A DNA stretch of 60,020 nt, the filler included, from Asterionella formosa (Eukaryota), in the NCBI GenBank assembly GCA_002256025.1. It is 12 parts of 12 records of this genome, joined end to end, with 100 filler letters (N's around TTAATTAATTAA, not from the genome) between each part and the next. Parts side by side here need not be neighbours in the genome. Positions count along the whole stretch, not along the records: positions 25,107 to 30,014 come from NKIB01013298.1; 11 more parts are not named here. One strand, given 5' to 3'. Below are positions 25,805 to 55,022 of this stretch, piece by piece. The notes under the pieces were generated by a model. It had not been told where the DNA came from. It saw only the letters and a list, made by a program, of their open reading frames with translations, and ran no database searches. The position numbers were made by a program, and so were the translations under genes. Within the stretch, counting starts at the first letter, position 1. Each line of letters opens with the position of its first letter.

Positions 25805-26938
25805 TTATTGTGGCATGGCCAATCCATTGAGAGATATCAACGTAATGTCATATTGCAACGTAGCGTCAGGGGGGATGCCTCGGCGGGGGACGCCCACCGA
25901 TCCATAGGCAAGCGCAGGGGGTATAATTACCCGGCGTCGTTCTCCTACACATGTCCCGTACAAACCAACGTCCCATCCCGGTGGGAACTGTCCAAAAGGC
26001 TGCTTGTTCAGAACGAAAAACAACGAGACATCGTTTCCCCTCCCTGGAATGGCTTCCCCATTTATGCGAATAGCAGATCCATCAAAGACAGCGCCAGTTT
26101 CAACAACTGTTCCAAGGTACGATATTTCCAGTAAATCATCAGTGGTAGCTCCTCGGTTGCACATTTTAGGTGGGATCAACTGCGACACCGAAATGCGTTG
26201 ATCGACCTGATCTGTCACCTGCCTTCCCAACTTGACCGAACCATCCCAGTTTCTCTGTGTGGTGTCTCCTGCCGGAGCAACTTGAGTTGTGACCTCTCCT
26301 TCTGAAGCCATATTTTTCAGTTTTTGCTTGAAAATCGCTGGATCGCGAAATGAAATCACAATTCCTCCATCGGCTGGTGTGTTCTTGGCAGCTCTCGCCA
26401 CCATTATGGCCACGCCTTCTGCGTTGGTTCGCTCTGCCCCTTGACCATTCACAGAGACAACAATCCAATTTGTTTGAATGCCCAATTTTTCTGCGAGAGA
26501 ATCTCCAGTTACCGATTTCACAAAGACTCGTGTATTCGTACGAAACTCAATCTGTCCAAGTTCGAGACCCAGCCCTTTCGAAAGATCCGACTTTGGGATA
26601 AAAAGAGAGATTTCGTCTGATGGAGCTGCCAATGCCTGCGGCGAGGATTGAATAGGCGGAGAAACAGCTTGAAGACCTCGATAGGACGAGTCGAAATCAG
26701 TGTTGGCAAACGTGTCTGTCTCATCTGTAACCGCTCCCTTGCTCTCGGTGGGCAGTATTAGACAAGCAGTGAGGGAGCTTGCAAGTGCTGCTAAAGCATC
26801 GCGCCGATCTGTTGGCGACATTTGTAGACATGTACTCGTTCTCGACGATTGGAAGACTTTCGTAAACGAAGATGCTACTTGGATCGTCTGAAGTAGTAAG
26901 ACTACAACAGCCGCGACGGAACAGCGGTACGTTGCCAT
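25805..26938 (-). CDS. PDZ + FKBP-type peptidyl-prolyl isomerase, predicted thylakoid lumen
   Basis: Signal peptide ending VASS-F, transit region, RR motif (TDRRDALAAL..SKGA); PDZ-like GLGL..VFVKSV..SLAEKLG..IVVSVNG; FKBP ISYLG..FDGS..GWDVGL..VGERRRVIIPPALAYG..IPPDATLQYDITL. Start could be 26938 or 26956. Confidence 0.88.
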   Translation of the reverse strand: MATYRCSVAAVVVLLLQTIQVASSFTKVFQSSRTSTCLQMSPTDRRDALAALASSLTACLILPTESKGAVTDETDTFANTDFDSSYRGLQAVSPPIQSSPQALAAPSDEISLFIPKSDLSKGLGLELGQIEFRTNTRVFVKSVTGDSLAEKLGIQTNWIVVSVNGQGAERTNAEGVAIMVARAAKNTPADGGIVISFRDPAIFKQKLKNMASEGEVTTQVAPAGDTTQRNWDGSVKLGRQVTDQVDQRISVSQLIPPKMCNRGATTDDLLEISYLGTVVETGAVFDGSAIRINGEAIPGRGNDVSLFFVLNKQPFGQFPPGWDVGLYGTCVGERRRVIIPPALAYGSVGVPRRGIPPDATLQYDITLISLNGLAMPQ

Positions 26939-26972
26939 GAGGATGAATTTATGCAAGTACCGGGTACATACA

Positions 26973-27527
26973 NNNNNNNNNNNNNNNNNNNNNNNNNNNN
27001 NNNNNNNNNNNNNNNNNNNNNNNNNNNNNNNNNNNNNNNNNNNNNNNNNNNNNNNNNNNNNNNNNNNNNNNNNNNNNNNNNNNNNNNNNNNNNNNNNNNN
27101 NNNNNNNNNNNNNNNNNNNNNNNNNNNNNNNNNNNNNNNNNNNNNNNNNNNNNNNNNNNNNNNNNNNNNNNNNNNNNNNNNNNNNNNNNNNNNNNNNNNN
27201 NNNNNNNNNNNNNNNNNNNNNNNNNNNNNNNNNNNNNNNNNNNNNNNNNNNNNNNNNNNNNNNNNNNNNNNNNNNNNNNNNNNNNNNNNNNNNNNNNNNN
27301 NNNNNNNNNNNNNNNNNNNNNNNNNNNNNNNNNNNNNNNNNNNNNNNNNNNNNNNNNNNNNNNNNNNNNNNNNNNNNNNNNNNNNNNNNNNNNNNNNNNN
27401 NNNNNNNNNNNNNNNNNNNNNNNNNNNNNNNNNNNNNNNNNNNNNNNNNNNNNNNNNNNNNNNNNNNNNNNNNNNNNNNNNNNNNNNNNNNNNNNNNNNN
27501 NNNNNNNNNNNNNNNNNNNNNNNNNNN
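26973..27527. other. Scaffold gap inside contig 6
   Basis: 555 N without the linker sequence; hides the divergent promoter and the TGT start. Confidence 0.95.
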
Positions 27528-29003
27528 CAAATAATGACAATGATTACACTGATTGGGATCCATTCAAGACGAGTGGCTGCGTTTTCGCCACATCAGAATG
27601 TTGCAGCAGCCAACGCCAGATCGATCCGCTTTGCCACGACGATTACTGCTGAACCCTCCGACAGTGACAGCTCAAAGGAGACTGGTGTTCAGATCAATTC
27701 AGTCGAACCCAATAATAATAAAATTTCAGAAGGCGGGAAGACTCGCAGCAGACCCAAGCACCCGCCACTGCCGACACCGAGTGACTTTCCAGACTGGTCC
27801 TTTGCACCACGAGATTACTTTCGGTTTGAGATTTTGCATCAGTCATCCAAGAGCCAAGCACGCGTAGGTCGCATTCATACTCCCCATGGAGTCATTGATA
27901 CCCCTGGATTTGTAGCAGTTGCCACAAACGCTGCTCTCAAGGGTGTGGACTTTCGAGATGCTGACGATTCAGGGCAGCAACTTATCTTTGCCAATACCTA
28001 TCATTTGATTCTACAGCCTGGACCGGATATTATTCGAGAAGCAGGAGGTATCCACAAGTATACCGGAAGGTTAGATCGTCCATTCATTACGGATTCTGGA
28101 GGCTTCCAAGTGTTTTCGTTGGCCTATGGCAGTGTTCAAGAAGAACTAGCATCAAGAGGAGAACTCAAACGACGTGTTGTTCAAGAAAGCAAACCCCAGC
28201 ATCACACTAATAGTGTTGGAGCAGATGCAGTAAAGGTGACGGAAGAGGGTGTCAAATTTAGGTCGTATCGCGATGGATCCAAATTCTTGTTGACACCAGA
28301 GAGTACGGTGCAAGCACAAAAGGACATTGGGGCTGATATTATTATTCCACTTGATGAACTTCCGCCTTACCATATAGATCGAGAATTGCTTGTCGAATCG
28401 GTAGATCGATCACATAGATGGGAGGCTCGTAGTCTAAGAGAGCACTTGAAGGATGTGAAAAATCAAGCAATGTACTGTGTCGTTCATGGTGGTATTGACA
28501 GGGAATTGAGAACAAAAAGTGTGGAATACTTGACATCGTTACCGTTCGACGGATACGCGATCGGGGGATCTCTCGGAAACGGACGAGAAGAACTGAAGGT
28601 CCTTTTGGAGTGGATGATGCCCTTGTTTGATGAAGGAGAGCGCAAATCGAAACCCCGGCATTTATTGGGAATTGCGGATGAAGAGAGTATTCGCAACGCC
28701 GTCACTAGAGGTTTAGACACTCTTGACTCTTGCTATCCAACTCGAATTGGTCGTCATGGTACGTTGCTGACACGAAACGGGCCCATAAAGATTAAGAGTG
28801 GAATTTATAGTAGGCAATATGGCGTCAAGATTGATGAGGCGTGCTCTTGTCGAACTTGCCAACGATACGATCGGGCTTACTTGTGGCACCTTGGGAAGGC
28901 CAATGAACCCCTGTTCGAGCAACTTTCCACGCTTCATAACATTCAATACATGAACGATATGATGGCTCAGATTCGACAAGATATTATGGAAGATAAGATA
29001 TAG
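27528..29003 (+). CDS. tgt: Queuine tRNA-ribosyltransferase, chlamydial-like bacterial type, plastid-targeted; 5'-partial
   Basis: ARVGRIHTPHG, ANTYHL, TDSGGFQVFSL, AIGGSLG, HLLGI, DSCYPTR, Zn site CSCRTC...H; N-terminal VAA-FSP presequence motif. Confidence 0.95.
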   Translation, partial: QIMTMITLIGIHSRRVAAFSPHQNVAAANARSIRFATTITAEPSDSDSSKETGVQINSVEPNNNKISEGGKTRSRPKHPPLPTPSDFPDWSFAPRDYFRFEILHQSSKSQARVGRIHTPHGVIDTPGFVAVATNAALKGVDFRDADDSGQQLIFANTYHLILQPGPDIIREAGGIHKYTGRLDRPFITDSGGFQVFSLAYGSVQEELASRGELKRRVVQESKPQHHTNSVGADAVKVTEEGVKFRSYRDGSKFLLTPESTVQAQKDIGADIIIPLDELPPYHIDRELLVESVDRSHRWEARSLREHLKDVKNQAMYCVVHGGIDRELRTKSVEYLTSLPFDGYAIGGSLGNGREELKVLLEWMMPLFDEGERKSKPRHLLGIADEESIRNAVTRGLDTLDSCYPTRIGRHGTLLTRNGPIKIKSGIYSRQYGVKIDEACSCRTCQRYDRAYLWHLGKANEPLFEQLSTLHNIQYMNDMMAQIRQDIMEDKI

Positions 29004-29018
29004 AAACATCTTTCCTAT

Positions 29019-29963
29019 TTATTGTCTTCTTGAAAGCTTCAGAGACTCTATTGTGCAGCGATCGAACCCTGCCTCGACAACAGCACTCACTAGGGTATCA
29101 GCAATCTTGGTTGCATCCGCCTCTGATGATGCCACAAATGTTACTCTTGAGCGGCCACCTTTCTCTGATTCGTTCAGCCACGACTTCGATTCAAGTATAT
29201 GAACTGATCCACGTTTTTGAATAGAGGTGTTTATCTTGTTTATACAAGCAACACATCCCATCGCAGGTACCAGCATCTCAATTTCAGCTTGAATTGGAAG
29301 CCCCACAGCATCTACAATGGTTCGCTTCTTCGGCCGATTGTTGCAGAGGTGTATTAGTTCTGGCAAAAAAGCCACAAGGAATTTTGCCGAGAGAATAGCC
29401 ACATTTCCCTGCGACTGAATCGATAAAAATGTTGCAAAGAGTAAGACTGCAAGGAAATATGGTCGAAGTGGACCTAGCCACTTGTTGAATCCAGCACACC
29501 CTCCAACTCCAACCATTGCATTGATAATGAGCTGGATACCGCAACAAGCGCTTGAAAGCAGCGGCATTACAACAGAATTGAATATGACTGTAAAGATTGA
29601 GGGTGACGCAAGTAGCGGTCCAAGTTTGTCAAAGCTTGAGTGACACGTGAGTCTCGCCGAAACTAGCACGGCTAAGCTAATTAATGTCTTCTGCAACATT
29701 CCCGGTGACCAGATAAGATAATAGGAAAGTGCAGTAGACTCCCCAATCTCGCCCTTGCGCGGATTTCTGTGACTACCACTACGAAGCAGTAATGAATCCA
29801 TATGCGGGCGAGGCATACTGAACGCTAGCTGCGTATTCTTGGACAGTCGCTTGATGCGACCCTGAGCTTCGAACCCCTCAGCGCGAGAGTTGCTTGATAA
29901 GATATGGATCAACAACACCGCAAAGGCCCATGCATGACTAACTCCTAACTTTCCCATTCTCAT
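29019..29963 (-). CDS. MerT-like membrane domain fused to an HMA domain (MerTP-like heavy-metal transporter) with N-terminal signal peptide
   Basis: PLLSSACCGIQL...LGPLRPYFL resembles MerT (ASACC..LEPYRP); C-terminal AMGCVAC in an HMA-like context. Confidence 0.75.
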   Translation of the reverse strand: MRMGKLGVSHAWAFAVLLIHILSSNSRAEGFEAQGRIKRLSKNTQLAFSMPRPHMDSLLLRSGSHRNPRKGEIGESTALSYYLIWSPGMLQKTLISLAVLVSARLTCHSSFDKLGPLLASPSIFTVIFNSVVMPLLSSACCGIQLIINAMVGVGGCAGFNKWLGPLRPYFLAVLLFATFLSIQSQGNVAILSAKFLVAFLPELIHLCNNRPKKRTIVDAVGLPIQAEIEMLVPAMGCVACINKINTSIQKRGSVHILESKSWLNESEKGGRSRVTFVASSEADATKIADTLVSAVVEAGFDRCTIESLKLSRRQ

Positions 29964-30884
29964 CCTGTGGTCACAGTTCTATTCGTCGACACAGCCGTGT
30001 TGAGAAATTTCGTGNNNNNNNNNNNNNNNNNNNNNNNNNNNNNNNNNNNNNNNNNNNNTTAATTAATTAANNNNNNNNNNNNNNNNNNNNNNNNNNNNNN
30101 NNNNNNNNNNNNNNAGTGATATAGCAATCACTCTGCAGTGATTCTTTCCACCAAAGCGCAACTGTTGAGTAATAACAAGAATCAATTTAGGTTGGAACAA
30201 AGGCTTAATGCTGGATCGTCTCCTAATTATGAATGAAACACAAAATAATACCGAAATTTCGTTGTTCATAAGGTCGATGGATAATTTACCATCCGTTGTA
30301 TATGTACCTGGTGTATACTTGCAGAAGCATACCCGTAGATGATTCTCCCAACAAGAATTCGACAAAATTATATACAGATTTCGTCACAAAATTCATTGAA
30401 GACATCGGGTCTTTTGAACCGAACCTCCCCAGCAGGAGAAAGTGTAACTAAGGTACGCTATCACCTTCGAAATCCAAAATTCGATTTCTTACGAATTTAA
30501 CTTGATGCTTAATTTTGATTGGCCCTCAAATAAATGGTCAAACCCATCCATTCATACACGTGGCATACAACTCGTGCATTCTTTATGCTGAATGTGGTAC
30601 CAGTATCAATGTTCCCTCACAAGTCAGTTCTTTTCCTCTTCAAAAAATTTAAAACACGGGGTCACAAAACATAGTATCTATATAGCAATTCCTGAGGTAA
30701 GGCAAATTCTAACTAAGAAATGAACCTACCTAAATAAGAATTGATACACCAGCTCTGTCGGACTGTCTATATTCCGTCAAAAAATTCTTATTTTTGATTA
30801 GTCTTCGCAAAGTAACCATGTGGAAACTTATTTACCTGCACCAAGATGCGGCATCATCAGACATCTACCGGACACTTACGCTGA

Positions 30885-31934: not shown

Positions 31935-34900
31935 CTATCGATGCATCACCTCCCCAACTAACATGGCAAACACCTTGTTAGTCTGGGCCTTGGTGAGCAC
32001 ATCTGCAAAATTATACCTTCCATCAATCTTGACTGGATGTACAATTCCGCATGCTGCCGCCTCCCTCACCTTGTGATATGAGATGGTAACATTTTTCTTC
32101 TTCAACAAACTATCCTTGATAGTTACTTTCTGAACTACTCCAAGGTTGTCACCAAACAGGTATGAGGCATGAGGCATGAGCCATCCGCACTCCCATTGAG
32201 CGCAGCATATAACGAAAAGCTATGGTTTCTTCAACTGCAATGCGCATAGCACAAAACTCAGCGCCGTATGTTGATGTCTCCACTGCTCCTTGTCGCCTAC
32301 TCATAAAGAATACAGGTGTTCTTCCAACAAATATAATCAAACCGGTCACTGACCTGCGTGTGATCTTGTCATGGGCATGATCTGAGTCAACAAACACAGT
32401 TATGTCCAACTCATCGACCAATGGCTTTGGTAGGTTGCAGTCAACCTCCTCAGATGCTTCAGGGTAGTCTTTACCAAGAATACTTGCGTAGTCTTTAGAA
32501 AAATCTTCCTTGAATCCTGAGAAGTCAGGCGACCTAAAATCCACAACAATTCGCCTATTTGGCCTCCTCTTTAGGTAGCCAAACACTTTCAATACCCGCT
32601 CAAGGTGTCCTTTTCTTGGACATGCAGAGAATCTTGACAATGACATTGTAGCATGTGCAACATCAAATCTCCCAATTGTTACTTCCCCATTCAACATGCC
32701 AATTAACATCTGAAACTTTCGATGTTCATCATCACTAAGTAGTGTGGTGTCATCGAGTTCTGGATGATCATTTGCACTCATTGGAATTGTACTTTTGGGT
32801 TGCACATCAAACATCACCTCAATTCTTGCAATCGACTCTTGTATGTATTTCTTGCATCCAAAACACCACCTGCCCTTCTTGTCCTTCTTGAAGTCATTTT
32901 TCCCAAGGTAATATTCTGGAGGACCTTCAGACTTGATCATATAGACCTGCTTGAGTCCTTCCATAATTACTTCAGGAGTTTTTGACACTATCATGAAGTC
33001 ATCTGACTGGGTGCAGATATATTCATAGTGTGAAGTATCATTGCTCATCTTGTACCACAAATCTTTGTCGTACCTAGTTGGCTGGAACCCCATTCCCCAG
33101 ATCGTGTCCGCAAAATGCGCCCACCAACGCTCAGAGCTTGATCTCAAAAAACCATATAGTGCTTTTTGGATGAGAATGATTGATCCCCTCAACTCCTCTC
33201 CAAATTCTGGTTCAGCACGGCAGTATACTAGCTCATTAGTGTATGCATTGATGTAAGCATTTCCAACATCTCCACAAAGCAGCTTCAAGTTCTCCTTGTG
33301 TGCAATCACATGTAGCATTCTAACACTTATGCCTTTCACAGTTGAAGAGTAAATATTGTTGTCAAGTGCGTCAACTAGATGTCCGCCAGCCACAAGTCTT
33401 GCCTTGCGCCGTAGATCTTGTTTGACGTCAAAGATCACTGTCAGTGTTGTCCATTGATATCCGACTCCAGGGTTAAAATCTGGCTTCTTAAATTCAAAAC
33501 ATTCCATTTCAACAAGTGAGGAGATTTCACGTTTGATTGCCTCTTGCCAGGCAGAATGTGTTTCCACTTTGCTTGTCCAATTCCATTGCATGGGTGACAT
33601 TTTGTGGGACCTCAATACCATGATACTTGAGAATTTTCTTCCTAATCTTAGGATGCTTCTTCTTCCTTATGTCGCCACGCCTCACTGTGTACACCTGATC
33701 ACATCCATCAAAATGATGCTCATATAACCTTGCAATTCTTTGGAAAGCTCGTTTGATGTCTCGAAATGTTTTCTTTGCCCATTGCATGACTCTATCCAGG
33801 CATTTGGAACGACTGACATTGTTGTCTACAATGTATTGTGCTGTCATGTTTGGATGGTCAAGCTTCAAGTCCTGAAATGATTCCCAGGAGACATTTTCAG
33901 TATCCCAGTGCACCTCCAACTCAAGTTGCCCGGCCTTCCAGCGATGCGCTTGAATATCAGTTACCCTGGAACCACTCATCTTTGTTGCCTCTGTATACTC
34001 TTCAGCTAGCTCATTATTGATCTCATCACACATTTCAATGTCATGTGTTGCGTCAAGTGGATTAAAGTCGAACTGAACATCATTGGTGTTGGATGGTGGA
34101 TTTTTTGATTTGTTGTTGTCTACTTCTGTTGTAGTACATTGCTCCTCTTTCCCCTCCTGCTCCTCTAGACCCTTTGATGTTTCAATGATCTGAGGAGTAG
34201 GAGCAAAATGAAATAGATGCATAGGATTGTGATCCTCTGGTTCATCTAGAGTTTCAGGAATAGGACTGGTGGGAGCGTTCCTTTTGCGTTTACGATCCTT
34301 CATTTTTGTTATTCTGGACTTGAGCGTAAGGTCACCATAAGGTACCTCATCACTGTAAGGCTCAGCTGAAGTTTCCTTTCGTGTTCGAACAATATTACGA
34401 ATGAGTTCAACACCTTTTTCCCAATTACCATCAGGACATGTCCAAATGCGATAAGTGAATGCATCTCCATGGTTCCATGCGATACCCACAAACCTTCCTA
34501 GAAGAAAGTTTGGGTTGGGTTACTTGGCTGTTGGCTCATAGTAATAGATTGCTTGCCAGAAGGAAAATCGAAACACAGAAATGTCTGGAGTTCTTCCATA
34601 AAGTCTCCCATTGTGAGTCCTCCAATCCAGTCCCTTATGCTGAATGATTTAGGCAATCAATAACCCACATCATGCAATAGCACCAGAACGTCAGTGGAGC
34701 TTTTGCCAAGCGTAGAGATAAAAAGAGATAAAATAGTTCGAGATTTAATGTCCCGGATCTTGAGCTCTGCCTGGTTCTGGTTTTGGTTGTGGCTGTGGGA
34801 CAGAATGGATTTGTTTTGTGATGTTTTCCCGGCTTGTTTTGATCCACAATGTGCCAGACTGAGTTTGAGAGTTATCAGTCAACAAAATGTTGGGAGCTCC

Positions 34901-46721: not shown

Positions 46722-48938
46722 CTATATCTTAGCTTTCTGCCTGTTTCTGATACTCCATTCAAAACCAAGATTCTCCAATGATTCAACTCGATCATTGGTC
46801 ATTGTGCTGACTTCACCCCTCTGCAACTTCTTGTATTGTATGCGTTGGTTTCGGACCCAAGTTGCAAGCAATTGATTGAATTGGTATTTGTCGGGAACAT
46901 TGCAGTTGCCATGTACCCTTTTAAATTCACTCAGCTCATTAAACCGCTCAACCCATCTTGCTTCATTGATATTCCACGTTAATCCAATTTCCTCGAGTCT
47001 CGCAACTCGTTTTGAAGTCAAGCTTGATCTGAACTTGCCGTCTTTCAGCTTCTTGTATTCGTTACGTTGAGTATTAACGAAGCGATATAAGGCCTCATCT
47101 GTGTAATTGGATGGTACATTGGCATGGCCAATCTTTTCGGAGAAAGCTTTGAGCTTAGCAAAGCCACTTTCCCAGGCGCCACGGTTCACATCTACTTTCC
47201 AAACAAAGCCAACCCCTTCTAGGCGCTCCTGACGTTCTTCAGTGAGCGACGAGACTTTCCCTGTTTGTTTGTCTCTATATTGCGTCCTCTGATTGACCAC
47301 AAAACCTACCAATTCCCTGTCGTGATGCGAAAGTGGAACATCGCAATTACCATGAGCTTCCTGATATGATTTCAATTTTTCAAAGCCACGTTCAAACATT
47401 TCATCATAAGTCTGAAAAACAAAACCCAACGATCGCAGCTGAGCCTCGCGGTTCGGCTTCATAACCCCTCTTTTTTTTGCATCTTTCTGTTTTCGGACCC
47501 ACACCGCAAGTTGATGATCATCTTCATACTCCACCGGAACTTGGCAGTGCCCGAATCTGGCAGAGAACATAGCTAGGGCGTGAAAGTTCCACTGCCATTT
47601 GGACTCCAGCGGATCCCAATCTATTCCGAGATCATCCAACTGTTCTATTCTATCCGGCGTAAGTCGACTTTCCCAGCGCTCCATCTGAAATATTTTATAT
47701 TGCTGCCGTACGTGCTTGAGCCATACAGTTAGTTCGTAGTTCTCCGCGAGTGTAACACGAAGGTGCCCATTCTTTTCACGATAGGCTTTTAATTCCTTTA
47801 TGCGACTTTCCCAGGCCTTTTCATTTGGACTCCAGTTAAATGCTAACGAATTTAGAAGCTTGACACGCTCGTTCGTCATGGTGCTCTGCATGCCTTGCTG
47901 ATAGCACCTGTATTCCGTTCGCTGAGTTCGAACCCAGTAATGGAGACCAGGAAATTCTTCTTCGTCGTCGTCATCATTCATGGTATCTGATGGAACCTCT
48001 ACATGACCATATCGATCATGAAATTTTTGTAGTTGCTTGAAGCGATCATCCCATGATAGGAGAATTTTAAAAGAAAAGCCCAAATCGTAGAGCATCTGTA
48101 TTCGCCACGGAGACAATTCCGTAATCTTATCACCCAACTCACCATTATCATCCATTTCATATTGATAGTAGTTGTTGCGAGCATATTTTCGGTAGTTAGT
48201 GCGCTGCTGCACGCTCCATCTATATAGAGGAGGGTCAGCATTCCAATCGAGAGGTACATCTGCGTGTCCAAAACGATTACAAAAGTCAACCAATTTGGTG
48301 TAATATACCATCCACCGTTCATCGTCAAGAAGCCATCCCGAGAACTTTTCCTCTTCGCGCAGCATCGTCGTTCCCAACCCACGAGCTTCAGGAGTAATGT
48401 CCATGGGTCCCTGCCAAGGCTTCGGCATGGTTACATTTTGTTCCCATTGCAGCAGATTCTGCGAAGGTATCATATTGTACCTCCTCATGCCTTGACTTGT
48501 CAAGGCATGCTGAGCTCTCCACGCAAAACCCTTGGAATCAATGACCAAGTCATCCGCGGTGTAGTTGGCGAGTGGAACTTTAGTCTCGTACCAGTGCGGG
48601 ATAGGCCTGCCGTAATGAGGAATCCATTTTTTGTCACTGAAGCAACCATTTCGGTACATGATGCGATCTCCGTCCACCGTCCGAATTTCATTGTTGGGTC
48701 CAAATTTGTCCGAGAATTCACAAGCCGCCACGAGGGACGATTCTTCTGAATTGGAACAGTCGCCGTTTCGAACGGCTGCTTCCTCATCATCGTCGACATC
48801 ATTGTGTGGTCCATTCTTTAAAAGAACAAACGTCTGAGTATTTCCCTGATGGATGACTATACGGGGAATTCTCAGTGACGGAAGAAAACATAGGCCATTC
48901 GGAATAACAGTTATCAGAAGAAGGAGAGACCGCACCAT
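46722..48938 (-). CDS. Protein with seven helicase-associated (HA) repeats and no helicase core; probable plastid presequence
   Basis: Seven W/F..F..L..F....GHxxVP...L..WV..QR...L..LGF.W units; MVRSLLLLITVIPNGLC-FLP signal peptide starts at ATG 48938. Confidence 0.88.
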   Translation of the reverse strand: MVRSLLLLITVIPNGLCFLPSLRIPRIVIHQGNTQTFVLLKNGPHNDVDDDEEAAVRNGDCSNSEESSLVAACEFSDKFGPNNEIRTVDGDRIMYRNGCFSDKKWIPHYGRPIPHWYETKVPLANYTADDLVIDSKGFAWRAQHALTSQGMRRYNMIPSQNLLQWEQNVTMPKPWQGPMDITPEARGLGTTMLREEEKFSGWLLDDERWMVYYTKLVDFCNRFGHADVPLDWNADPPLYRWSVQQRTNYRKYARNNYYQYEMDDNGELGDKITELSPWRIQMLYDLGFSFKILLSWDDRFKQLQKFHDRYGHVEVPSDTMNDDDDEEEFPGLHYWVRTQRTEYRCYQQGMQSTMTNERVKLLNSLAFNWSPNEKAWESRIKELKAYREKNGHLRVTLAENYELTVWLKHVRQQYKIFQMERWESRLTPDRIEQLDDLGIDWDPLESKWQWNFHALAMFSARFGHCQVPVEYEDDHQLAVWVRKQKDAKKRGVMKPNREAQLRSLGFVFQTYDEMFERGFEKLKSYQEAHGNCDVPLSHHDRELVGFVVNQRTQYRDKQTGKVSSLTEERQERLEGVGFVWKVDVNRGAWESGFAKLKAFSEKIGHANVPSNYTDEALYRFVNTQRNEYKKLKDGKFRSSLTSKRVARLEEIGLTWNINEARWVERFNELSEFKRVHGNCNVPDKYQFNQLLATWVRNQRIQYKKLQRGEVSTMTNDRVESLENLGFEWSIRNRQKAKI

Positions 48939-53996: not shown

Positions 53997-55022
53997 TTAC
54001 CTATGAAAAGGTTTGATACGACGAATATTAATTCGTTCAGTAATATGCATAGTGCGTTGAAAAGTAACTGTACCATTGGCATGTACTTGAATAATAGTAT
54101 AAGGACCTCGTCCACGATCATCCAAAGTAGTAGGATTATCCAATAATATTAAAATCTCGTCACCCACTTTGTAATCATAAGATCGACGACGGAAATTTGC
54201 ACGACATAAACGTTCGTCAATTATCACCTGTCGACGTTGATGTATTAATTGTAAATCTGTAATCAAAGGAATATTTAATATCATATCACGTTGGAAAACC
54301 CATGCTCCTGGTGAAATACGTAATATACTATGAATAGTAGCTTGAGCTGCACATGACGCAGCTGCAAAACATGTATCCACAATATTTTGGGCTTGAAATT
54401 CATTGATTGGAGGATGAGCCTTTAACATAACTCGTAGACTATTGCTGATAGATTGATGGAAACGTTCACAGATAGCATTTGCTTGTGGATTCTTTACTGT
54501 GGTAGTCACATCTTTGATTCCATTCAATACTAACATGTGTAAGAAAGGAGCACCAGTAAATTCACCTCCATTGTCATGTATACAACGTTCTGGACGGGGA
54601 TATCTGGCTAACCAATCATTTTCAAATTTCATTGCAATATATTCTGATGTTTTATTGATGATACGTGAAATTTCTGCTAAATTGGTGACTGTGTCAATAC
54701 AAGTTAGAGCACGAAATTCAATCGTTTGAGCAGCCACTGTTATCTTCCATGGACCAATTAGATCTACTGCGACTTCTGACCATGGTAATAATAATGCATT
54801 CCTGGGTGGAAGTTCACCAAAACCAGTACCAGGTAATTTTGTACGTTGACATGCTTCACATACTCTTACAATATGTTCCACTCTTGTTTTTAATATAGGG
54901 TGATAAAAATGTGTAGCAATTGTAGCATTTAATCTTGTCATACCCACATGAGCTAACATCTGATGATACCAATTAATAATAGGATCCAATAATGATGTAG
55001 GAATAGCAATACGCCAAGTATC
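53997..55022 (-). mobile_element. Ty3/gypsy integrase, intact frame, 5'-truncated by contig end
   Basis: H..LAH..C..C zinc finger, VAVDLIGPW, IHDNGGEF, NPQANAICER, GPY motif (GRGPYTI). Confidence 0.93.

What the first reader, a model, noticed from the sequence alone, without database searches (positions are those of the whole stretch)
29019..29963. Eukaryotic MerT-HMA (MerTP-like) fusion with an organelle-type presequence
Seen: signal peptide plus a basic/Ser-rich extension, a TM domain with the SSACC pair and LGPLRPYF, an extra Cys (GGCAG), and a C-terminal MGCVAC HMA motif. Established: bacterial MerT uses a CC pair in TM1 and MerP a GMxCxxC to import Hg(II). Inference: an ATP-independent Hg/Cu/Cd/Zn carrier in a diatom plastid or endomembrane. 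It lies among ordinary nuclear genes with no mer operon in this contig. A strong candidate for an undescribed metal-handling component.
Basis: partly seen in the sequence, partly recalled or inferred. Interest (0 to 1): 0.7.

Follow-up and report, generated by a model that had tools for sequence, protein, structure and literature searches.

The report
Algal MerT-like metal carrier, flipped orientation
This diatom gene encodes a probably plastid-targeted relative of bacterial mercury-uptake proteins that seems to sit in the membrane the opposite way round and probably handles copper or similar metals, in an organelle whose usual copper pumps appear to be missing.

Summary
The intact, intron-free 314-aa gene has a signal-plus-transit presequence, a MerT-like membrane domain and a CxxC HMA domain. 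Profile comparison gives a collinear match to bacterial MerTP (probability 96, E 2e-9). The CC pair and a third Cys are kept in 247 of 247 homologues, the named ones all diatoms or dinoflagellates.

It is not a MerT proper. The cytoplasmic Cys pair is gone, an extra N-terminal helix is added, and the genome gave no MerA match over cut-off. The Lys/Arg bias is reversed against bacteria, which points to an HMA domain facing the stroma.

New here: unnamed, apparently eukaryotic sequences carry tandem (MerT-HMA)x2 proteins whose two halves have opposite charge bias, and divergent split gene pairs of the same two types. The diatom protein descends from the flipped half, and no partner was found in its genome.

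Best reading: an ATP-independent cysteine relay that moves Cu(I)-like soft metals away from the plastid stroma. Substrate, direction and membrane are inferred, not shown, and the Phaeodactylum orthologue is only a low-confidence plastid call. No description was found in 10 literature searches.

The parts
29019..29963 (-). Whole ORF, 314 aa (P0001), MerT-like membrane domain plus HMA; the only copy found in the genome
29874..29963 (-). Signal peptide, residues 1-30, predicted cleavage AEG|FEA (Met3 is an alternative start)
   Evidence: hydrophobic stretch plus ASAFind matrix, no SignalP run
29730..29873 (-). Transit-peptide-like region, residues 31-78: Phe at +1, Ser/Arg-rich, low pLDDT
   Evidence: transit score 4.28, published cut-off 2; pLDDT < 50 at 27-72
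29646..29723 (-). YYLIWSPG motif and extra helix TM0 (residues 81-106), absent from bacterial MerT/MerTP; only moderately hydrophobic
   Evidence: Y81 225/247; helix in both models; KD17 1.36
29511..29597 (-). TM1 (123-151), kinked at the C140-C141 pair (29541-29546), equivalent to MerT Cys24/Cys25; polar face Q144, N148
29454..29501 (-). GCAGFN..LGPLRPYF loop with the eukaryote-specific third cysteine C156
   Evidence: 247/247; a Cys at this place in 0 of 41 bacterial MerTP
29340..29459 (-). TM2-TM3 hairpin (169-208) with a short loop lacking MerT's second Cys pair; invariant P201-E202
29028..29294 (-). HMA domain (224-312) with MGCVAC at 29244-29261 and loop-5 GF
   Evidence: VIA Z 10.8, rmsd 1.7, 72 aligned to yeast Ccc2a, tied with other HMA domains; profile hits to ATP7A/B, CopA, MerP, CopZ

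Best explanation
A nucleus-encoded plastid membrane protein of a eukaryotic branch of the MerT/MerTP superfamily. After import it sits with its HMA domain and C156 on the stromal (positive-inside) face, the reverse of bacterial MerTP. The CxxC captures Cu(I), or another soft ion such as Ag, Cd or Hg, and hands it to C156 and the C140/C141 pair. The ion then leaves the stroma without ATP along a polar path (Q144, N148, N160, E202), probably in an oligomer. The likely purpose is to keep stromal free copper low around Fe-S enzymes and to set the plastid's soft-metal balance where PAA1/PAA2-type pumps are missing. Shown: sequence, homology, conservation, HMA fold, presequence signal at family level, charge bias. 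Inferred: location, topology, metal, direction, transport itself.
For: Collinear hhalign match to MerTP, probability 94.6/96.2, E 6.8e-8/2e-9, 158 columns. A membrane-domain-only HMM scores 5 of 5 MerT and 40 of 41 MerTP at 12.7 bits or more; reversed decoys reach at most 4.7. Bipartite presequence: 164 of 211 long-N-terminus homologues have an h-region (shuffled mean 31) and 105 of those 164 have small|Phe (shuffled 29+-4, max 40). HMA-side loops carry more K/R in 84% of 232 eukaryotic against 2% of 41 bacterial proteins; the query is 6 against 1. In 18 tandem proteins repeat 1 has the query's bias and repeat 2 the bacterial bias (15 higher, 1 equal, 2 lower), and the query's family nests among repeat-1 sequences. 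The 4 P1B ATPases of the genome show no leader by eye, and PAA1/PAA2 are reported absent or non-plastid in Phaeodactylum (PMC9546453 passage). No plastocyanin match and only a degenerate SOD_Cu match argue against import for those clients. Kept in the non-photosynthetic Nitzschia Nitz4 (P0053).
Against: No transport, binding or localisation experiment exists. TM0 is only marginally hydrophobic in the diatom-type proteins (median 1.39; 68 of 228 reach 1.6); if it does not cross the membrane the topology argument weakens. The Phaeodactylum orthologue is not a confident plastid call. MerT's exit Cys pair is missing and no repeat-2 partner was found in the genome, so it may be a half-transporter. 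Cu(I) preference rests on recalled HMA rules (CxxC without an acidic ligand, loop-5 Phe). The Nitz4 gene model lacks a presequence. Absences come from a 15,436-contig assembly searched exon by exon. Another plastid-predicted 'copper transporter' (J47805) is listed for Phaeodactylum.
Confidence: 0.45

Rival explanations
1. Importer of Cu or Zn into the plastid, or into the thylakoid lumen, replacing PAA1/PAA2: either in the bacterial orientation in an envelope membrane, or with a stromal HMA feeding lumenal clients.
For: Bacterial MerTP imports (PMC5715351 passages); plastid P1B pumps are not seen; TM0 is marginal; five homologues have three HMA domains, as high-affinity collectors might.
Against: No plastocyanin match and no intact Cu/Zn SOD in this genome; gene kept in a non-photosynthetic diatom; charge bias opposes the bacterial orientation.
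Confidence: 0.22
2. Membrane-anchored metallochaperone, buffer or sensor that binds the ion in a three-Cys membrane site but does not move it across; a relic half of the two-repeat transporter.
For: No exit Cys pair; no repeat-2 partner in the genome, whereas other lineages keep both halves fused or adjacent.
Against: Invariant intramembrane polar residues and all three Cys are kept equally in both halves of the tandem proteins and in the solo form, which suggests the same chemistry.
Confidence: 0.15
3. Same carrier chemistry but in the periplastid membrane, chloroplast ER or another endomembrane rather than the inner plastid membranes.
For: Phaeodactylum orthologue lacks Phe at the SignalP site; 59 of 164 h-region homologues lack small|Phe; 9 of 18 tandem relatives start close before TM0 and several single repeat-1 ORFs show no leader.
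Against: Phe at +1 in 122 of 164 and a query transit score of 4.28.
Confidence: 0.08
4. Transmembrane thiol-disulfide relay (CcdA/DsbD-like in logic) that uses the HMA CxxC as a redox domain.
For: Intramembrane Cys, CxxC domains on both faces and inverted repeats in the tandem forms resemble that logic (recalled).
Against: No DsbD family among the 7 Pfam families hit by 120 members; the soluble domain is an HMA, not a thioredoxin fold; homology is to metal carriers.
Confidence: 0.05
5. Dedicated mercury uptake or detoxification, as in the mer operon.
For: Ancestry from MerTP; thiol sites will bind Hg(II) in any case; 11 of 41 bacterial MerTP loci have a MerA-like ORF in the fetched flank.
Against: No MerA over cut-off: the best hit scores 361 against 454 bits and lacks the C-terminal CC. 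Strict conservation across diatoms and dinoflagellates fits housekeeping, not a patchy resistance trait.
Confidence: 0.05

Closest known systems
MerTP fusion (NCBIfam NF033556; Bacteroidota, e.g. Spirosoma Slin_6742)
   Same: CC in TM1, (L)xPxRPY motif, Pro ending TM3, C-terminal CxxC HMA, same order over 158 columns; 118 of 120 homologues hit the model at E <= 0.05.
   Different: Query far below cut-off (33 against 180 bits); loop CxC pair lost; third Cys, Q/N/E polar residues, TM0 and presequence gained; K/R bias reversed; long separating branch, donor unresolved.
Tn501/Tn21 MerT plus MerP (PF02411, PRK13751)
   Same: C140/C141 align with Cys24/Cys25, the pair needed for Hg(II) transport.
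   Different: Match covers only TM1-TM2 (46 columns); no Cys76/Cys82; fused HMA; no merR/merA context; eukaryotic.
Plant and green-algal plastid Cu pumps PAA1/HMA6 and PAA2/HMA8
   Same: HMA-fed, Cys-based metal passage at a plastid membrane (functional analogy; their properties are recalled).
   Different: Those are P1B ATPases; this protein has no ATPase domains. They are reported absent or non-plastid in Phaeodactylum.
Inverted-repeat and paired small transporters (SMR/EmrE, Fluc; recalled)
   Same: The wider family shows fused antiparallel repeats and adjacent oppositely biased single genes.
   Different: No sequence or fold relation found; analogy of architecture only.

Membership tests
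MerT/MerTP | Vicinal Cys pair in TM1 (Cys24/Cys25) | tested here: met
   C140/C141 247/247, aligned to MerT CC
MerT/MerTP | Profile homology of the membrane domain | tested here: met
   hhalign probability 92-96; TM-only HMM separates MerT/MerTP from decoys
MerT/MerTP | Score above the curated cut-off (PF02411, NF033556, NF010314) | tested here: not met
   15.4/32.9, 33.3/180, 14.8/150 bits; best relative P0265 31.7/32.9
MerT/MerTP | Second Cys pair in the cytoplasmic TM2-TM3 loop | tested here: not met
   1 of 247 against 41 of 41 bacterial MerTP
MerT/MerTP | Three TM helices with MerP/HMA on the outer face | tested here: inconclusive
   K/R bias reversed but TM0 marginal; no experimental topology
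MerT/MerTP | mer operon context or MerA in the genome | tested here: not met
   neighbours TGT and FKBP-PDZ; no MerA over cut-off in a fragmented assembly
MerT/MerTP | Hg(II) transport activity | not testable with these tools
   needs an uptake assay
HMA domain (PF00403) | Ferredoxin-like fold with MxCxxC | tested here: met
   model and VIA Z 10.8 to Ccc2a; MGCVAC; sequence score under cut-off for the query, 54 of 120 members hit at E <= 0.05
Complex-plastid protein (ASAFAP type) | Signal peptide plus F/W/Y/L at +1, transit score > 2 | tested here: inconclusive
   met by the query and 122 of 164 with a heuristic cleavage site, SignalP not run; Phaeodactylum orthologue low confidence or negative
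MerF / MerC | Profile match of the membrane domain | tested here: inconclusive
   one MerF and one MerC sequence not scored by the TM HMM; no MerF chain in the fold lists

The most novel reading that the evidence does not exclude
Microbial eukaryotes hold an undescribed family of MerT-derived, ATP-independent soft-metal transporters. It arose by duplication and membrane inversion (HMA-out ancestor, HMA-in copy made by adding a helix, antiparallel fusions and split pairs). Its solo flipped member is the main copper gate of diatom and dinoflagellate plastids, which lack PAA1/PAA2.
Probability: 0.35. Interest if true: 0.85.

Novelty: new variant of a known kind. Interest (0 to 1): 0.7.

Why it matters
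Diatom plastids appear to lack the PAA1/PAA2 copper pumps of plants (PMC9546453), so how they control copper and other soft metals is open. This gives a single-gene candidate with a named orthologue in a genetically tractable model (Phatr2a_42943, no KO annotation and not found in that plastid transporter atlas under this ID). It also occurs in coral symbionts. It would extend the Mer transporter family, which I recall as prokaryotic and mercury-specific, into eukaryotic housekeeping. The solo, split-pair and fused antiparallel forms make a rare natural series for how inverted-repeat transporters evolve. It may also be an incidental route for Hg, Ag or Cd in phytoplankton.

Tried and rejected
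Single-sequence PDB search: 0 hits. Fold search of the membrane domain alone (pLDDT 82.6): best VIA Z 4.9 among 48,161 chains, no Foldseek hit under E 6; uninformative. Homodimer prediction: score 0.00, no verdict, alignment not used. Prokaryotic or viral member of the eukaryotic family: 9 pattern matches in GTDB genomes and 5 in IMG/VR, none confirmed; motif-limited, so contamination or very recent transfer is unlikely but distant bacterial relatives are not excluded. Donor lineage: not resolvable; quick trees only, long stem. Rosetta-stone fusions: of 8 longer hits, 4 were tandems, 2 triple-HMA, 1 insertion-rich single unit and 1 a probable merged gene model with kinesin/ankyrin pieces. ESM Atlas gave only unnamed or HMA-labelled diatom clusters. 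Taxonomy of tandem hosts: no names; no dinoflagellate spliced leader found in 80 loci. Expression data for Phatr2a_42943: no gene row in the supplements of PMC9010474 (4 files), PMC5156380 (2 numeric coincidences) or PMC7972479 (12 of 16 files searched); a changed Phatr3 identifier could hide it. In PMC9546453, 2 of 10 hits for the number were seen, both numeric, and 'J42943' gave 0. The T. pseudonana table of PMC4329603 was too large to read and other files were cut. An RGG-motif literature lead was not relevant. Earlier scan findings: none.

Full report
Observation. It lies on a 4,908-base contig, tail to tail with a queuine tRNA-ribosyltransferase gene 15 bases away and near an FKBP-PDZ gene. 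It was the only match in the 68-Mb genome with three different queries. Twenty of 24 listed runs, from 13 studies and mostly freshwater, hold the stretch. Of four runs laid, two RNA-run contigs of one study cross the ORF without a joint and stop 17 nt before the ATG, one RNA run covers part, and the DNA run continues. That is a weak hint of an unspliced transcript, not proof.

Family. Searches returned 139, 485 and 262 hits; one listed proteins were examined and all had CCxxQ. After dropping six near-copies of the query, 247 were aligned: C140, C141, C156, Q144, N160, G164 and P165 are invariant, P201/E202 246, C237 245 and C240 244. Named members are diatoms (Fragilaria, Nitzschia, Mayamaea, Chaetoceros, Cyclostephanos, Skeletonema, Fistulifera, Amphora; Phaeodactylum) and Symbiodiniaceae (Symbiodinium, Durusdinium, Cladocopium, Effrenium); most hits are unnamed. 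A diatom host for the window is inferred from these relatives. No prokaryotic or viral member was confirmed.

Homology. Single-sequence scores are below all cut-offs, but 118 of 120 aligned members hit NF033556 at E <= 0.05. Profile comparison with seven Bacteroidota MerTP gives probability 94.6 and 96.2 over 158 collinear columns, and with five MerT 92.4 over TM1-TM2 only. An HMM of the membrane domain alone scores 5 of 5 MerT and 40 of 41 MerTP at 12.7 bits or more, reversed decoys at most 4.7, and does not score the single MerF or MerC. The 41 MerTP came from 46 loci: 3 gave no ORF and 2 gave a wrong one; several are near-identical. The C-terminal domain folds as an HMA. In MerT, Hg(II) passes from MerP to Cys24/25 and then to Cys76/82 (PMC5715351, passages read). 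The first pair is kept, the second is not (1 of 247 against 41 of 41), and C156 is new (0 of 41 bacteria). It is therefore a MerT-derived variant, not a member of the MerT equivalog.

Targeting. Using the ASAFind matrix (PMC4329603, passages and Table S2) with my own h-region heuristic in place of SignalP, the query cleaves at AEG|FEA with transit score 4.28. Of 211 homologues with a long N-terminus, 164 have an h-region (shuffled mean 31, max 42), and 105 of those have small|Phe (shuffled 29+-4, max 40). Against this, the Phaeodactylum orthologue Phatr2a_42943 is 'Not plastid, SignalP positive' in that paper's table and 'Plastid, low confidence' in PMC12136025 (supplement row only). Plastid location is likely, not shown.

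Orientation. HMA-side loops carry more K/R than the opposite loops in 84% of the 232 measurable eukaryotic proteins and in 2% of 41 bacterial ones. A search for longer forms revealed tandem (MerT-like-HMA)x2 proteins. A metagenome scan returned 80 loci, 21 with two units in one ORF; with four database proteins and near-duplicates removed, 18 remain. No hydrophobic segment precedes the second unit (0 of 18 reach KD 1.6, against 11 of 18 before the first), so with three crossings per unit the second must be antiparallel. The charge bias flips accordingly: mean +1.8 against -2.9, higher in repeat 1 in 15, equal in 1, lower in 2 (Wilcoxon p 0.002; the sequences are related, so this overstates the evidence). 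Eleven of the 59 other loci hold two units in different frames: 8 on one strand and 3 (two near-identical) as divergent repeat-1/repeat-2 gene pairs. In a FastTree tree bacterial MerTP attach between repeat 2 (support 90) and repeat 1 (94), and the diatom/dinoflagellate family (99) nests among repeat-1 sequences. The hosts are unnamed; an intron-like break and UVSSA and TMTC neighbours suggest eukaryotes. Inference: duplication, inversion of one copy by an added helix, then fusion, pairing or solo retention. Caveat: that helix is only moderately hydrophobic in diatom-type proteins (median 1.39; query 1.36).

Which metal and why. The HMA site has two Cys, no acidic ligand and loop-5 Phe, which from recalled rules fits Cu(I)/Hg/Ag better than Zn; the top structural matches are tied and include Zn domains. 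The genome has four P1B ATPases whose visible N-termini lack a leader (unseen upstream exons are possible). PMC9546453 (passages) reports PAA1/PAA2 as undetected or non-plastid in Phaeodactylum, though its table lists another plastid-predicted 'copper transporter'. There is no plastocyanin-family match. The one SOD_Cu match lacks a leader and, against the recalled motif, several His ligands. No MerA passes the cut-off. The gene is kept in the non-photosynthetic Nitzschia Nitz4 (PMC9292941, passages), though that model has no presequence. These points fit removal or buffering of stromal Cu(I) (0.45) better than import (0.22), a non-transporting chaperone (0.15), another compartment (0.08), a redox relay (0.05) or mercury handling (0.05). 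All absences come from a fragmented assembly.

Novelty. Ten library searches (listings and abstract starts only) showed no paper on a eukaryotic MerT-like family; subscription journals are mostly outside the library. PMC6723447 and PMC5487736 (passages) added only background. Supplement searches for the Phaeodactylum ID gave no functional data. Databases call the proteins hypothetical, HMA-domain or CopZ. Verdict: real, conserved and apparently undescribed; a new variant of a known kind; interest 0.7.

Noticed in passing
P0261, P0262, P0264, P0265; L079-L099, L138: Tandem (MerT-like-HMA)x2 proteins with opposite K/R bias in the two halves; the second HMA is MGCEAC in 17 of 18. Hosts unnamed.
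   Followed up: yes
L101:2044-3714, L102, L106:898-2106: Divergently transcribed adjacent genes, one repeat-1 type and one repeat-2 type: a split version of the tandem protein.
   Followed up: partly
P0133, P0134, P0136, P0137, P0152: A clade with one membrane unit and three HMA domains, with an acidic N-terminal extension after the signal peptide.
   Followed up: partly
window 29775-29783 region; family N-termini: An RGG motif about 90 residues before the CC pair in 78 of 211 homologues (shuffled 4.8); the query has RSG there. Possibly a processing site; unexplained.
   Followed up: partly
L104, L114, L116, L121, L126: A second signal-peptide-bearing subfamily (HMA SVGCxAC) in a separate repeat-1 branch, so organelle targeting may have been gained twice.
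   Followed up: no
tree: Symbiodiniaceae sequences nest among diatoms near the query and Fragilaria (support about 90) and form more than one subfamily, one without a signal peptide; possible transfer between algae.
   Followed up: no
window 25805-29963: All three genes of this small contig (FKBP-PDZ, TGT, MerT-HMA) have signal-plus-transit-like N-termini by eye; TGT and MerT-HMA converge with 15 bases between stops and RNA-run contigs span both.
   Followed up: no
L069:1471-2061: The only SOD_Cu match of the genome appears to lack several metal-binding histidines and has no leader.
   Followed up: partly
L070:1432-2973 (second hit of equal score L071): Signal-peptide-bearing MerA-like flavoprotein without the C-terminal CC pair; 361 bits, under the MerA cut-off.
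   Followed up: partly
G000:C10224:31728-31871: Small stand-alone HMA frame (83 aa), a possible Atx1-like chaperone.
   Followed up: no
window 30020-30115 and other N runs: The window is contigs joined by N runs with a TTAATTAATTAA spacer, so neighbours across spacers are not real neighbours.
   Followed up: yes
window 31935-34303, 53997-54959, 46722-48938: Copia-type retrotransposon remnants (RVT_2, integrase zinc finger) and a protein of seven helicase-associated (HA) domains.
   Followed up: no
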